From NCBI GenBank assembly GCA_964016885.1, contig OZ024740.1, forward strand, positions 73,160,001-73,224,000: a DNA stretch of 64,000 bases, in the 5' to 3' direction. The position numbers were made by a program, and so were the translations under genes. The notes beneath the pieces were generated by a model. It had not been told where the DNA came from, made no database searches, and worked only from the letters and a program-made list of their open reading frames with translations. Every line of letters starts with the position of its first letter. Positions within the stretch are counted from its first letter, which is position 1. This DNA comes from Eledone cirrhosa. Its lineage: Eukaryota. Positions 4,506 to 30,843 of the stretch are shown piece after piece.

Positions 4506-4700
4506 TAACAAAGGAATTGTGGTGACGAAACTAGATGGACCATAACGCACCAGAGTACTCAATACTTAGGGTAGTAGAGTGGGAAATAGGAAAAAGTATG
4601 ACCCCGACGGCAGAGCTCAAGCCGTTTCGACGGCTATTTTAGTCCAGAAATAGCCGTCGAAACGGCTTGAGCTCTGCCGTCGGGGTCATACTTTTTCCTA
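4506..4700. mobile_element. Fold-back PLE-like terminal remnant (family X), copy 1
   Basis: Flanked by (TA)n. Inverted arms ~4587-4638/4648-4700. Same sequence recurs at 10218-10421, 30634-30843 and partially at 42765-42848. Confidence 0.65.
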
Positions 4701-5909
4701 TATATATATATATATATATATATATATATATAGAGAGAGAGAGAGAGAGATTGGAAGTTTTCAATTGTTGAACATATTCAAAAGTTTTTCAAATTCTATA
4801 GTTTGAACTTTCACAAAGTTGAACCAATATTTTCTTCCCCACCATGTTTAGATCAAACAAGAGATCAAAGCGAGACCATATCTCAAGTGTTCGAATTGTA
4901 ATTCAACTTCTTATGCTTTTCTTTCTTTTTTCTCCTCTCTTCCACAAGTTTGCTAAGCTGGATCTGACCAAAACAACCACCCGTCAAAACCTACAAAATA
5001 TATGACTGGAAATCGCATCTGTTATTATTAATGGCGATGAAGACATAAGTTGCAAAGATGATACGTAAGTGTTAAGGATGAAATTTGCAACCATTTTCCT
5101 AACATTAGCCAAAAATCGTACAAATATCTGCAGTTTTCATGATAATGGTATGTACATAATATACATAATGTAGAGTAGCTTTAAATGACTGCATTGCGTG
5201 GTTGATGAGAGACAGGAGAATGTAAACTGTGAAGTTGACTTCAATGAGGAATCAACAAAGATGTAGAAATATTAGGTTAGCCAGTGTTCGTCTGATCTCT
5301 GTCACATCATTTATGGATCAATGGAATTGTACAAAGTAGAGTTTTCCGTGAGAACAGGACAAATGTCACGCACCAAATCTTATAAAAACGTTCCAGTCGA
5401 AAATCGTTCGAACTTTTATTGGAATGACCCCCGCCCAATAAATAAATAAATAAATAAATAAATAAATAAATAAATAAATAAATAAATAAGTAAATAAATA
5501 AATAAGTAAATAAATAAATAAGTAAATAAATAAATGAATAAATAAATAAATAAATGATGACTCTCCAGATATCTAATTTTGACCGAATACGATACCAATG
5601 GATGAAAATCAAACATTTCACTTTTTGCTCTACTTTGTAATTACAAAAACGAAAATGCCAATAATCAGAGCTAGATGGAGCTATAAGCTTCCCTTGTGAC
5701 ATTTTTTTTTTCTGTTCGATCGGTCGGTATTCCGTTATTTCGTTCGATATAAATCGTCATTCAAGCATTTGACTACGGTCGACAGGGGCCAATACTTCTG
5801 TTTGACTCGGTCTTTGTTATTATTACTACTTTCGCTTGAGAGACGCAATGAGAGGAGATAGTGTCATATTTAGAGAGCGTTGACATGAACATAGTCAGTC
5901 GTTCGTTTC

Positions 5910-6228
5910 CCACTACCACCACCACCACCACCGATGCTACAACCTCAGCCACCACCACTGTCACCACCACTGCCACCACCACCATCATCATCATGAACAT
6001 CACCAATAACAGCATTACCAGCAATGCCGTCTCCACCGCTACCACCGCCACCACCACCACCACTACACACACCACTACACACACCACCATCACCATCGCC
6101 TTAAACAACCAATACCGCCATTATCACCGTCACTGCCGCCGCCACATTCATACAGCCGTCGCCACCACCAATAGCGGTACCATCACTACCTCCAACACCA
6201 CCACCACCACAACTATCACCTTACCACC
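5910..6228. repeat. Degenerate (ACC)n trinucleotide region
   Basis: Direct: cac/acc triplets. Source of the poly-T/poly-V pseudo-ORFs. Confidence 0.9.
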
Positions 6229-7311
6229 ACGATCGCTCTTTCCCTCCATCACTTGTTCCCCACCCCCGCACACAAGGCAGACTATATGATCCATCAAATT
6301 CTCAGCGTGACGTGTAACGAGTGCATAAAAATGAAACGCTAAAAGATATTAATGTAGATTTACGGCATGCTTCACTAATTATCGTCTGGCATTGGGAAGC
6401 GACATTATCGTCGTCAAACGTCAGCCATCCTCAGGCCACATTAAGTCCTTTCACCGGCAAAGTAAGGCGGACCGCCTCATTAGCTAGCTGTAAAAGAACG
6501 CTATTTCTAAGCAGTTGTTACTGTGAACACACTGAGCTAATTGAGATGGTGGCAGTATGTATGTGAGCGTGTATATATATATATATATATACATATATAC
6601 ATACATACATATACTCTCATATATATATTTATATACTCATATGTATATGTATATATATATATATATATATATATATATATATATATATATATATATATAT
6701 ACATATATATATATATATGTATGTATGTGTGTGTGTGTGTATACATTTATACATATGTGTATGTGTGTGTGAATATGTGTGTGTGTGTGTGTGTGTGTGT
6801 GTGTGTGTGTGTGTGTGTGTGTGTGTGTGTGTGTGCGTGCGTGCACGTGTGTATTGGCAGTGGTGATGGCAATGTTGGTGTTGATGATATATAAATGGTT
6901 GGTAGTGGTGGTGGTGGTGATGGTACTGGGGCTGATGCTGGTGACGGTGTCGGCGGGAGTGTTGATGCTTCTGATGGTGTCCACGTTAGTGTAGTGGAGA
7001 AGAATGATAGATGTGTGAATGACGTTATTGATGTTGTTGTTGTTGTTGTTGTTGTTGTCGAAAGACAGAAGTCGTGTGAGAAATCTCCGAAAACGTTCGT
7101 TGAATCATTGAATTACAAGATGTCATTGGAAGATGGATTTGTTGTTAAGAATGAAACATTTTCAGTCGGAATATTTTGCTAATCTGTTGATTATCACAAT
7201 GGCAATGTAATACAGTGAAGGCACGTGACCAAGTGGTTAGAATGTTGAATCCATTGTCATAAGTTCGTAGGTTCGATTTCCATATTGAGGTGTTGTGTTC
7301 TTGGACAATAC

Positions 7312-7470
7312 CAGGGCCTCCAAGTTTGCAAGGCGATACAAGACCGTTTTAGGGCCTGAGGCAGGCAAAGATTTTTCTCAAAATGACTGTTGCATGGTTG
7401 ATGTGAGGCCTTCTTAGCTGTTGGGCCCCGGAATAATGTACCGACTGGAACCTCCCTCTCATAGGCCCTG
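7312..7470. mobile_element. MITE-like element (CAGGGCC...GGCCCTG termini) inserted into a tRNA-SINE
   Basis: 7-bp terminal inverted repeats. Interrupts a SINE whose head (gtggttagaatg...ggttcgattt) starts at ~7220 and resumes at ~7471. No clean TSD seen. Confidence 0.5.
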
Positions 7471-7619
7471 GGAAAGAGACTTCATTTTGGGTTGTTCCAG
7501 TTCACTCAGTTATAACAAAGTGAATGCCACCAGCAGCTCGGGGTTAATCCAATGATAGACATGCGCATAAGAAAATCTTTTCTTGCTTTCGATAACCCTT
7601 CACAACGACCACAGCGAAA

Positions 7620-28539: not shown

Positions 28540-28897
28540 AAATAAAGGATTATGAGTTCATGCAATTGACTTATGTTTCGTCACTATATATATATATATA
28601 TATATATATATATATATATATATATATATATATATATATATATATATATATAAGTAAAAAACAAAAAAAAAAACAATTACAAAGAGTGCAGTACGAACAG
28701 TGTTGGTATTAGGTTCGCGCTTCAGAGTGGGGAGTGAGGGACATATATATATAAATATATATATATATATATATATATATATATATATATATATATATAT
28801 ATATATATAAAGAGAGAGAGAGAGAGGGGGGGAGAGAGAGAGAGACATAGAGAGAGAGAGAGAGAGAGAGAGAGAGAGGGGGGAGGAGGGGGGGAGA

Positions 28898-29106
28898 GAA
28901 GTAGTTCCACAACAGTTAATTCACCATTCGTATAATTGTTTCCCTTTCCGTATAACGTAATTTAAACCGAGCTGATGATCCGTCTTAGGTGAAAGAAATT
29001 GTTCTCGGAAATGGTGAATTGAATGTTGTGGAACAGCTTCTACCGAAATCGTCCCATGAACTGAGTGCTCTCTACTACTACGCATATGCTCCGCCAGTGT
29101 TCTACT
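28898..29106 (+). mobile_element. Fold-back PLE terminal remnant with HHR at 28967-29008
   Basis: CCGAG-CUGAUGA-UCC(GUCUUA)GGU-GAAA-GAAAUUG-UU-CUCGG. Related inverted remnant at 29767-29937 has GAAACAAUUGUU (palindromic stem III) but a degenerate core. Confidence 0.65.
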
Positions 29107-29959
29107 ATATATATATATATATATATATATACGTATATCGTGCAATGAATGTAAATGTATGTATATTATATTTGGCAATATACCGTATGTTTAATTAAAA
29201 ACATTTAGAAGACCATATGCTATCAATTTTAAAGTAGTGACTATGTCAGTTACTTCTATTCGGCGAAAGAAGGGAGAGAAGCTGACAGTTTGTTTCACGC
29301 AGGTTGGCGTTCATCATAGCTACGTATCATACTCCCCTGCTCTCGCCGAAAATTATAGAAGCTGGATTCTTATAGAATTCCAGTAATAATCAGGAGCTGA
29401 TTATTCAGAGTGATTGCCGGTCCAGCAAAAATTAGGTATTAGGATTGGTGCTCTGAACTAGCGATGTATACATGAATGTATGTATAGTATATTTGGCAAT
29501 ATTCCGTATGTTTAATTAAAAACATTTAGAAGACCATACGCTACCAGTTTTAAAGTAGTGATTATGTCACTTACATATATATATATATGTGTGTGTATAT
29601 ATATATATATATATATGTATATATATATATATATATATATATATATATATATAGAGAGAGAGAGAGAGAGAGAGAGAGAGAGAGAGAGGGAGAGAGAGAG
29701 AGAGAGAGAGAGAGAGAGAGAGAGAGAGAGAGAGAGAGAGAGAGAGAGAGAGAGAGAGAGAGAGAGAGAACACTGGAAGGTAATATCCGTAGTGGTAGAG
29801 CACTCAGTCCATGGAACGAGTTTGGTAGAAGTAGTAATGCAACAGTTAGTTCACCATTCCGAGAACAATTGTTTCACCTATTGCGGATGAAGATTTGCAT
29901 AAGGTGAAACAATTGTTCCCGGTATGGTGAACTAACTATATATATATATATATATAACA

Positions 29960-30600
29960 AATTATAAAGTAAGAAGAAATAATAGAGACAGATATATACC
30001 TATCTTTTCCTCAATGTCCCGACTGTACAGTTTCGCTGGTCAGTATGAAACAATTTCACATTATAGAGGTCTATCATTGTTGTGAGGCAAACCAGCTTCT
30101 CAAGGGAACTCCTCGGGGAAAGAGCGCTTTCCAGACAGGTTCGTAGCAAGCGAGAAAATCTCAAAAAAGCGGAGGGAGAGATTATCACGTGATACACCGG
30201 TCAAGGCGGAGGGAGATTTAATACATGATACCGAGGTTACAGGAGGGTGGTAAGGTTGACTGAAAGTGGTTATAGTGTTTGCTTAAAAGCAGTTACTATA
30301 CTTCCGTGGTTACTCGAACGTGTGGGAGTTTGAGACATTAATGAGAGGTACGCACATATATGTGCATACATACACATGTATATATACACATGTATTTTTC
30401 AGAAGTATGTGAATGTGGATGTGTGTGTTGTCGACCTTAACCAGTGTTGCTCTATGATTACGAGAGACAAAACAATCGAAATAATTATATTGACTCGATA
30501 TCAGAGCTAAATAATGTAATAAATTATAAAGTAATAAATAATGTAATAAATTATAAAGTAAGAAGAAGTAATAGACACAGATATATACCTATTGTTTCCT
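29960..30600 (-). mobile_element. PLE pLTR-like remnant with terminal direct repeat
   Basis: ~45-bp direct repeat aattataaagtaagaagaa.taataga.acagatatatacctat at ~29960 and ~30549. Contains the HHR at 30017-30107. (TA)n flanks. Confidence 0.6.
30017..30107 (-). ncRNA. Hammerhead ribozyme motif, U3-A8 core variant
   Basis: UCCC-UUGAGAA-GCUGGU[~50 nt]ACCAGC-GAAA-CUGUACAG(palindrome)-UC-GGGA. Confidence 0.78.
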
Positions 30601-30633
30601 ATATATATATATATATATATATATATATATATA

Positions 30634-30843
30634 TAACGAAGGAAATGTGGTAAGGAACCAGGTGGACCATAACGCACCAAAGTACTCAATACTTAGGGTA
30701 GTCGAGTGTGTAATAGGAACGAGTAGGACCCCGACGGCTGAGCTCAAGCCGTTTCGACGGCTAATTCTGGACTAAAAAAGTTTTAGTCCAGAATGAGCCG
30801 TCGAAACGGCTTGAGCTCAGCCGTCGGGGTCCTACTCGTTCCT
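30634..30843. mobile_element. Fold-back PLE-like terminal remnant (family X), copy 3
   Basis: Arms ~30714-30777/30781-30844. Matches 4506-4700 and 10218-10421. Confidence 0.65.

What the first reader, a model, noticed from the sequence alone, without database searches (positions are those of the whole stretch)
4506..30843. Recurrent fold-back family X with a hammerhead-shaped motif but a non-canonical core (A3-U8, G5A)
Seen: copies at 4643-4684, 10284-10325 and 30728-30771(-) read UCC-AGAA(A/U)UA-G(CCGU)C-GAAA-CGGCU(UGAGCUC)(A/U)GCCG-UC-GGG. This has stem I, a 7-nt core, a 1-bp stem II, GAAA, stem III with a palindromic loop and a GUC triplet. The core swaps C3-G8 for A3-U8 and varies at the free position 7, but has A at position 5. 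One arm (30787) reads AGAAUGA. AGCCGU-CGAA-ACGGCU can form a competing hairpin that buries GAAA. In all three full copies the inversion point lies at or just 5' of this motif. Established: G5A is normally inactivating. Inference: this is a conserved non-cleaving or switchable HHR derivative, or a new core variant, and may be where RT folds back.
Basis: partly seen in the sequence, partly recalled or inferred. Interest (0 to 1): 0.72.

Follow-up and report, generated by a model that had tools for sequence, protein, structure and literature searches.

The report
Promoter splits a retrotransposon's ribozyme
These mirror-image repeats are stub copies of a protein-coding jumping gene that keep only the back half of its hammerhead ribozyme motif, likely because the gene's RNA starts in the middle of that motif, and rarer stubs that begin exactly at the predicted cut site likely record the whole ribozyme cutting in the living animal.

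Summary
The letters are real, but the 'A3-U8, G5A core' is a misreading. The three repeats are head-to-head stubs of a Hydra-type Penelope-like retroelement (intact 717-719 aa ORF, 3.54-kb unit). In long copies the true hammerhead core lies about 50 nt upstream and reads UUGA-N-AA: G5 intact, N7 free, the known U3-A8 variant (4,077 of 5,467 exact matches; 1,318 have C3·A8). About 90% of 61,069 arms lack the core. They stop at the A of a conserved TYAGTY inside stem II, with an extra G (95 of 100 listed ends), so a capped transcription start likely splits the ribozyme. Separately, 83 insertions have both arms starting exactly after GUC (0 and 0 at the next two positions upstream) without G excess, which likely records cleavage in vivo. 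The scan noted cap-G stubs, twin priming and cut-site stubs before on other DNA; a start inside stem II was not among the notes returned.

The parts
4507..4701 (.). Copy 1 (subfamily B): head-to-head stub in (TA)n; minus arm with 79-nt tail 4507-4639, plus arm without tail 4638-4701
10216..10420 (.). Copy 2 (subfamily A1): minus arm without tail 10216-10269, 9-nt untemplated spacer, plus arm 10279-10342 and tail 10343-10420
30635..30845 (.). Copy 3 (subfamily A1): minus arm with tail 30635-30776, 5-nt spacer, plus arm without tail 30782-30845
10280..10285 (+). TYAGTY initiator-like motif in the stem II loop; its A (10282) is the likely capped transcription start. Same motif at 4639-4644 (+), 30783-30788 (+), 30770-30775 (-)
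10287..10299 (+).
10300..10327 (+). G12-A13-A14, palindromic stem III, GUC triplet (predicted cut after 10322) and the 3' strand of stem I (GGGGU). Equivalent cut sites after 4681 and 30825 (+), 4606, 10236 and 30733 (-)
10336..10342 (+). Element end without tail (likely RT start site 1), at the 3' end of the extended stem I
10343..10420 (+). 78-nt tail; its end is the second element end (likely RT start site 2). In full-length parents it continues into a ~90-nt leader and the ORF
42755..42849 (-). Fourth, tail-only fragment of the same family

Best explanation
The three repeats are head-to-head stubs of a protein-coding Penelope-like retroelement that keep only the 3' half of its U3-A8 hammerhead motif, likely because transcription starts inside stem II and two cDNAs, likely primed from both cut strands of a (TA)n target, run off that RNA end and are joined. 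Shown: the parent and its ORF; the complete motif (ACCCC, UUGANAA, long stem II, GAAA, stem III, GUC, GGGGU); the sharp 5' boundary at the A of TYAGTY; the extra G there; tail on exactly one arm; a second, minor boundary exactly after GUC. Inferred: the extra G is the copied cap of a Pol II transcript; RT starts internally at the two element ends, 60 and 140 nt from the cap, so most products are stubs; the minor class is copied from RNAs cut by the complete ribozyme of read-through or tandem transcripts.
For: Parent: 40 of 40 scored candidates join the 3' UTR to the RT/GIY-YIG ORF end; 4 of 4 units read in two tandem arrays have intact 717-719 aa ORFs. Core: 5,467 exact matches, control 0; N7 takes all four bases; 4,077 U3-A8, 1,318 C3·A8, 72 not A at 8, of which 6 C3-G8. 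Contigs of three runs laid without a pattern vary in the core only at positions 3 and 7. The hammerhead is the lowest-energy fold of L119 and within 2 kcal/mol in 4 more of 7 copies folded. Boundary: of 95 arms taken in genome order, 75 end within 16 nt 5' of stem II's 3' strand, 2 in the next 30 nt, 1 at 48, 17 keep the core. Cap: 352 insertions have both arms ending at the A of TYAGTY with an untemplated purine; in the 50 listed, 95 of 100 ends have G (counted by eye); at cut-site ends the purines are G 20, A 22, besides T 58 (by eye). An extra G marks cap copying in L1 (PMC11702581, passage). Cut: 83 insertions with both arms exactly after GUC, 0 at +1, 0 at +2; 32 of 49 listed junctions in a looser set of 486. 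Twin arms: tail on one arm only in 68 of 68 tight pairs; same subfamily tag in 92 of 99. Internal RT start at two sites and a predicted dimer are reported for the anole element (PMC11167929).
Against: No RNA was seen: cap, start site and cleavage are read from DNA junctions only. Only 2 of 11 measurable long, non-tandem ORF-bearing copies begin at the TYAGTY boundary and none at the cut site; most extend 180-950 nt upstream, so read-through RNAs supply most long copies. Some stub arms are templated a few bases past the A (to TCATTTAG). The covariation rests on two or three subfamily events, and 'pairs with a change on both sides' did not beat the shuffles (355 of 500). RNAalifold shifted stem I into the core. 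Rfam found no hammerhead in the complete copy. Subfamily A1, where C3·A8 is common (12 of 18 long copies sampled by core type), is not depleted among cut-site stubs (20 of 50), and tail variants could not assign these stubs to a core type. No convincing downstream promoter element was seen (by eye).
Confidence: 0.82

Rival explanations
1. The 42-nt motif is itself a conserved hammerhead with a new A3-U8/G5A core, non-cleaving or switchable.
For: The letters can be drawn as a three-way junction, 92% of cells pair, and the motif sits at the very start of the inferred RNA. The competing hairpin is real in energy terms: probability 0.24-0.98 in 3 of 7 complete copies, 0.01 or less in the other 4.
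Against: U4 and G5 are both wrong; subfamily C reads GGAUCUA there, losing A6 too, and changes in step with an upstream strand. No covariation for this fold (163 of 500) or for the competing hairpin (385 of 500). A complete core with G5 lies 50 nt upstream. Stubs ending at the start site outnumber cut-site stubs about 30-50-fold.
Confidence: 0.03
2. The boundary in stem II is not a transcription start but an RT stall or snap-back at the hairpin, a 3' splice site (TTYAG), or a nuclease cut in the loop.
For: TTTAG/TTCAG with an upstream T-rich or CTAAY stretch resembles a splice acceptor, and Penelope of D. virilis has an intron ending in its hammerhead (PMC4209133). 52 pairs join further into the loop by microhomology.
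Against: Arms end at or after the A of AG, not after AG, and no shared upstream exon or leader sequence appears in 99 junctions. Snap-back would keep the loop, which most stubs lack. A stall or a cut does not explain G at 95 of 100 ends against 20 of 42 purines at the cut site.
Confidence: 0.1
3. The minor class starting after GUC comes from RT pausing at the base of stem III or at the G run, not from ribozyme cleavage.
For: Stem III begins two bases 5' of the site; the mismatch-rich subfamily A1 is not depleted; in the anole element no RNA reads ended at the hammerhead site (PMC11167929).
Against: Both arms stop at the same base, the one predicted for cleavage; the two positions between it and the helix give 0 and 0 against 83.
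Confidence: 0.15
4. The ~200-bp palindrome is a self-propagating unit (MITE-like or retrozyme-like) copied from palindromic masters.
For: Very high copy number and near-constant size; both arms nearly always of one subfamily.
Against: The junction differs from copy to copy, with 0-17 untemplated bases or microhomology; the tail is on one arm only; stubs lack the core a retrozyme needs; coding parents with the same ends exist.
Confidence: 0.04

Closest known systems
Hydra clade of C-terminal EN+ Penelope-like elements (Craig et al. 2021, PMC8557442; passages, section 11 and part 2 of 59 of the supplement read)
   Same: Single ORF with RT and C-terminal GIY-YIG, RWR for RWK, DKT, CxCx5C linker, CxxC and CxH, no GxKF/Y, (TA)n target, pLTR, inverted 5'-truncated partner, one-sided tail.
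   Different: Unit 3.54 kb (Hydra generally under 3 kb); tail about 78 nt (30-40 bp described); all 26 Hydra hammerhead rows in File S2 have CUGA cores and short stem II, here U3-A8 with a ~55-nt stem II.
U3-A8 hammerhead variants (Cercyon PLEs of Schistosoma, PMC4209133, parts 1-2 of 4 read; natural U3-A8 covariation, PMC3088659, passages read)
   Same: Type I fold in the pLTR, U3-A8 pair in place of C3-G8, stated active in vitro; palindromic stem III suited to dimers.
   Different: Not minimal: 5-bp stem III with a 16-nt near-palindrome and a long stem II; about a quarter of core-bearing copies carry unpaired C3·A8 and a small lineage U3·G8.
Poseidon element of the green anole, PAc (Frangieh et al. 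2024, PMC11167929, parts 1-2 of 4 read)
   Same: Two internal RT start sites that define the tail, AT-rich target cut on both strands, hammerhead not needed for insertion in vitro.
   Different: There no RNA reads ended at the hammerhead site; here a class of genomic stubs starts exactly at it, and the main 5' boundary lies inside stem II.
Penelope of Drosophila virilis (Schostak et al. 2008, PMC2377424, passages read)
   Same: TATA-less promoter inside the pLTR with an initiator; partial tandem needed for transcription.
   Different: There the start lies 46 nt before an intron whose end maps to helix I, i.e. upstream of the ribozyme; here it is inferred to lie inside the ribozyme and no intron was found.
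Non-LTR retrozymes of animals (bioRxiv 10.64898/2026.07.22.740005, part 1 of 5 read)
   Same: Type I hammerhead, link to PLE pLTRs.
   Different: Retrozymes are non-coding tandem units each with a whole ribozyme; these stubs are single, core-less ends of a coding element.

Membership tests
   AGAAUUA has G4 and A5; subfamily C reads GGAUCUA
   3 cells changed on both sides, 163 of 500 shuffles as high
Type I hammerhead: complete motif of the parent | Core N3-U4-G5-A6-N7-N8-A9 with Watson-Crick 3-8 pair and free N7 | tested here: met
   U3-A8 in 4,077 of 5,467; not met in the 1,318 C3·A8 copies; positions 4, 5, 6, 8, 9 without variants at 3% in laid contigs
Type I hammerhead: complete motif of the parent | G10.1-C11.1, G12-A13-A14, A15.1-U16.1, NUH triplet | tested here: met
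   GC 28 of 32, AU 29 of 32, GUC
Type I hammerhead: complete motif of the parent | Three helices around the core | tested here: met
   96%, 90%, 91% of cells paired; stem II covaries; folds; RNAalifold differs in stem I
Type I hammerhead: complete motif of the parent | Match to a curated Rfam hammerhead model | tested here: not met
   no match at E up to 10
Type I hammerhead: complete motif of the parent | Self-cleavage after NUH | not testable with these tools
   indirect only: 83 versus 0 and 0 junctions
Hydra-clade Penelope-like element | Single ORF, RT then C-terminal GIY-YIG | tested here: met
   717-719 aa; YRDD at 348, YIG...R..QH at 606. Pfam gave no family
Hydra-clade Penelope-like element | RWK motif, DKT, CxCx5C linker, CxxC and CxH, no GxKF/Y | tested here: met
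   RWR 35, DKT 117, CNCPDRSIC 572, CNLC 670, CKH 698, no GxKF/Y
Hydra-clade Penelope-like element | CCHH motif absent from the endonuclease | tested here: inconclusive
   one cysteine inside the GIY-YIG core by eye; no alignment to CCHH-bearing elements made
Hydra-clade Penelope-like element | (TA)n target, pLTR, inverted partner, one-sided tail | tested here: met
Hydra-clade Penelope-like element | Generally under 3 kb with a canonical hammerhead (typical, not strict) | tested here: not met
   3.54-kb unit, U3-A8 core
Hydra-clade Penelope-like element | RT phylogeny inside the clade | not tested
   no tree with reference proteins was built
Non-LTR retrozyme | Non-coding tandem units, each with a complete hammerhead | tested here: not met
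   stubs lack the core; tandem units are coding

The most novel reading that the evidence does not exclude
The start site inside stem II makes the ribozyme one-directional. The capped 5' copy of the pLTR is a substrate only; the complete ribozyme in the 3' pLTR (or in another transcript) pairs with it through the palindromic stem III (duplex -26.5 against -5.0 kcal/mol per hairpin) and cuts off the capped first ~48 nt, while its own GUC stays uncut for lack of a partner core. The element would thus decap its own mRNA, as a switch from translation to template use or as copy-number control, and transcripts of the ~55,000 half-ribozyme arms would be trans-substrates or decoys. Trans cleavage would also explain why the C3·A8-rich subfamily still leaves cut-site stubs.
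Probability: 0.2. Interest if true: 0.78.

Novelty: new variant of a known kind. Interest (0 to 1): 0.48.

Why it matters
What the hammerhead does for Penelope-like elements is open: Cervera and de la Pena wrote of an absence of in vivo evidence, Craig et al. call its function unclear, and Frangieh et al. found it dispensable in vitro and saw no reads ending at its site. This family keeps two RNA 5' ends as DNA fossils, one with a cap signature inside the ribozyme and one at the cut site without it, in a ratio of roughly 30-50 to 1. It also has young intact copies and natural U3-A8, C3·A8 and U3·G8 lineages. That gives exact constructs for asking whether and when the ribozyme cuts. It also warns that half-ribozymes in truncated copies can be misread as new cores.

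Tried and rejected
Rfam: no hammerhead match in the window, a stub or a complete copy. Pfam: no family for the parent ORF. Sequencing runs: no RNA holder listed; only contigs were laid, whose depth steps are not copy numbers and are not counted as evidence. A-to-I editing of A8 as a rescue of C3·A8 was considered and could not be tested without RNA. My first reading, that the whole family has C3·A8 (48 of 50 copies with C at 3), was a sampling effect of following one subfamily; one search corrected it. Splice-acceptor and spliced-leader readings of TTYAG: no shared upstream sequence in 99 junctions. Test of whether C3·A8 RNAs are cut: inconclusive; of 22 A1 cut-site stubs 9 had a tail variant seen in none of 23 long A1 copies, 4 the U3-A8-linked variant, the rest an ambiguous tail. 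(1,685 single-arm matches) was set aside: 39 of 100 listed are uncut copies with one more G. One search failed as a control, because its matches are templated, microhomology-joined arms. The sigma-70 scan is irrelevant to a eukaryote. The tail-like stretch at 13387-13447 did not lead to a sister family. Tree of 75 of 101 long copies (26 C3·A8 rows left out at random, midpoint root): C3·A8 rows lie between older and the shortest-branched U3-A8 groups, which suggests loss and regain of the pair, but one origin was not tested and template switching could blur it. Papers not held: Lunse et al. 2017 and Przybilski and Hammann 2007; that G5A inactivates and that an unpaired 3-8 position slows cleavage strongly is recalled, apart from the C3G and G8C results in PMC11167929. 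Supplements of PMC4209133 were not read and may list long-stem-II or U3-A8 motifs of related animals. Literature searches returned no paper, by title or abstract start, on a PLE start site inside a hammerhead or on genomic stubs at the cut site; most subscription papers are not covered.

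
Full report
Observation. The three motifs are at the stated places. Each lies in a ~200-bp palindrome inside (TA)n, with a ~78-nt tail on one side; a fourth, tail-only piece lies at 42755-42849. The window is part of a 3.0-Gb genome. The motif's central pattern has 61,069 exact matches, control 0, and 15,771 tight head-to-head pairs exist, control 5.

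Parent. Three of the first 30 loci extended upstream, and one reached the end of a GIY-YIG domain. All 40 scored candidates for that stretch shared it. Longer stretches gave the layout: inverted partner, 5' pLTR with tail, ~90-nt leader, ORF, ~1.3-kb 3' region, motif, optional tail, (TA)n. 400 copies keep the tail-leader junction exactly. Two tandem arrays with 3.53-3.54-kb units carry intact 717-719 aa ORFs in 4 of 4 units read, with RWR, DKT, YRDD, CxCx5C, GIY-YIG, CxxC and CxH and no GxKF/Y. These are the markers given for the Hydra clade (PMC8557442, section 11). An earlier scan note pointed me to that clade; I checked the motifs, not the tree.

The real ribozyme motif. ACCCC pairs with the GGGGU after GUC; CRGCUA pairs with UAGCYG before GAAA. 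A pattern that left positions 3 (C or U), 7 and 8 open has 5,467 matches, control 0: 1,318 are C3·A8, 72 are not A at 8, six of them C3-G8, leaving 4,077 U3-A8. Position 7 takes all four bases. The pattern fixed positions 4-6 and 9, but contigs laid without a pattern vary in the core only at 3 and 7. U3-A8 is a described natural variant in PLEs (PMC4209133) and is stated to be active in vitro (PMC3088659). On 32 long copies of five subfamilies this structure has 92% of cells paired and 30 cells changed on both sides, with 0 of 500 shuffles as high; three stem II pairs switch between subfamilies. These are few independent events, and the count of such pairs did not beat the shuffles. The competing hairpin is real in energy terms in stubs and in 3 of 7 complete copies, but nothing shows it is selected. 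RNAalifold shifted stem I and Rfam found nothing.

Why the stubs lack the core. Core-bearing matches are 9% of arms by pattern counts and 17 of 95 among arms taken in genome order (95 of the first 100 listed). Of those 95, 75 end within 16 nt 5' of stem II's 3' strand, two in the next 30 nt and one at 48. In 99 tight pairs (partly selected by similarity) the ends peak at the G and A of a TYAGTY motif, and longer ends mostly run on in untemplated T or overlap the partner. TYAGT is conserved across subfamilies while the loop around it varies; TCAGTT is the Drosophila initiator (PMC10290830, passage), and D. virilis Penelope has an initiator-type promoter in its pLTR (PMC2377424). 352 insertions have both arms ending at that A followed by an untemplated purine; in the 50 listed, 95 of 100 ends have G, and 45 of 50 have it on both arms (by eye). 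An extra G marks cap copying in full-length L1 insertions (PMC11702581). I infer a capped start inside stem II. Against: only 2 of 11 measurable long non-tandem copies begin there, and a few stubs are templated some bases further, so read-through RNAs exist and give most long copies.

A second RNA end. 486 insertions join within the GGGG region; 32 of 49 listed start at or just after GUC on both arms, 10 extend past it by microhomology, 7 are unclear (by eye). A strict pattern gives 83 insertions at the cut site against 0 one base and 0 two bases upstream. Their untemplated neighbours are T 58, A 22, G 20 in the 100 listed ends, so no G excess, as expected for an uncapped end. I infer cleavage by the complete ribozyme in vivo in a few percent of templates.

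How the palindrome forms. The tail is on exactly one arm in 68 of 68 tight pairs. Both arms carry the same subfamily tag in 92 of 99; five of the rest have an unassigned arm and two differ. Junctions vary from 14-nt overlaps to 17-nt inserts. With internal RT starts at two sites, cutting of both strands and a predicted dimer in the anole element (PMC11167929), the simplest reading is two cDNAs from one RNA joined at their 3' ends. This is inferred, and earlier notes on this genome proposed the same.

Unresolved. A quarter of core-bearing copies have unpaired C3·A8, and in a tree of 75 of 101 long copies they lie between older U3-A8 groups and the shortest-branched U3-A8 groups (midpoint root). 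The element therefore spread with a core predicted to be weak. Yet subfamily A1, rich in C3·A8, supplies 20 of 50 listed cut-site stubs, and tails could not assign them. Residual activity, U3-A8 members of A1, or cutting in trans through the palindromic stem III (duplex -26.5 kcal/mol) could each explain it.

Verdict. The proposed new core is not real. What is there is a Hydra-type Penelope-like family with a known U3-A8 core, an unusually long stem II that likely holds the transcription start, and DNA footprints of both a capped end and a cut end. Cap-G stubs were noted by this scan in other genomes, at the front edge of the ribozyme; a start inside stem II, which leaves a substrate-only half, was not among the notes or papers returned. 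Class: new variant of a known kind; interest 0.48.

Noticed in passing
window 18082-26015: A second, very young Hydra-like element: intact 832-aa ORF at 21820-24318 (37% identical to the family X protein), a 3.2-kb 100% identical inverted partner, and a hammerhead-like motif with a U4C core (CCGAAGA) at 21562 and 25761 (+) and 18172 (-).
   Followed up: partly
window 10532-13337: A third, 5'-truncated Penelope-like element with an inverted arm and a canonical CUGAUGA hammerhead at 13229 (+) and 10639 (-).
   Followed up: no
window 13362-13700: A tail 77-81% like that of family X, fused head-to-head to a different abundant repeat with a canonical hammerhead core at 13688; none of 14 other loci of that repeat had this tail.
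   Followed up: partly
window 1536, 9015, 28040 (-); 28488, 28971 (+): Further canonical CUGANGA...GAAA hammerhead candidates from a regular-expression scan, some in other fold-backs such as 26860-27170.
   Followed up: no
window 33949-46132 and 59054-63975: A cluster of nested non-LTR retrotransposon copies, with a 643-aa ORF (36973-38904) followed by a 1,156-aa endonuclease-RT ORF (38905-42375).
   Followed up: no
L321, L322, L325, L330, L341, L348 (downstream of the tail): Six of 30 tail-leader loci end 101-123 nt past the tail, around the start codon, which suggests a third RT start site.
   Followed up: no
L112, L113, L193, L209: A small lineage with a U3·G8 wobble core (UUGAAGA) that joins a subfamily C-type 5' stem II strand to a subfamily B-type 3' strand, probably a recombinant.
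   Followed up: partly
L389 and L390: Head-to-tail arrays of at least four 3.53-3.54-kb units with near-identical intact ORFs, useful as source clones.
   Followed up: partly
run X5 (organism B) laid on L120:1426-1644: Four contigs from a second coded organism match the element end, one with no differences over 166 nt that include the U3-A8 core; low depth, so contamination is possible.
   Followed up: no
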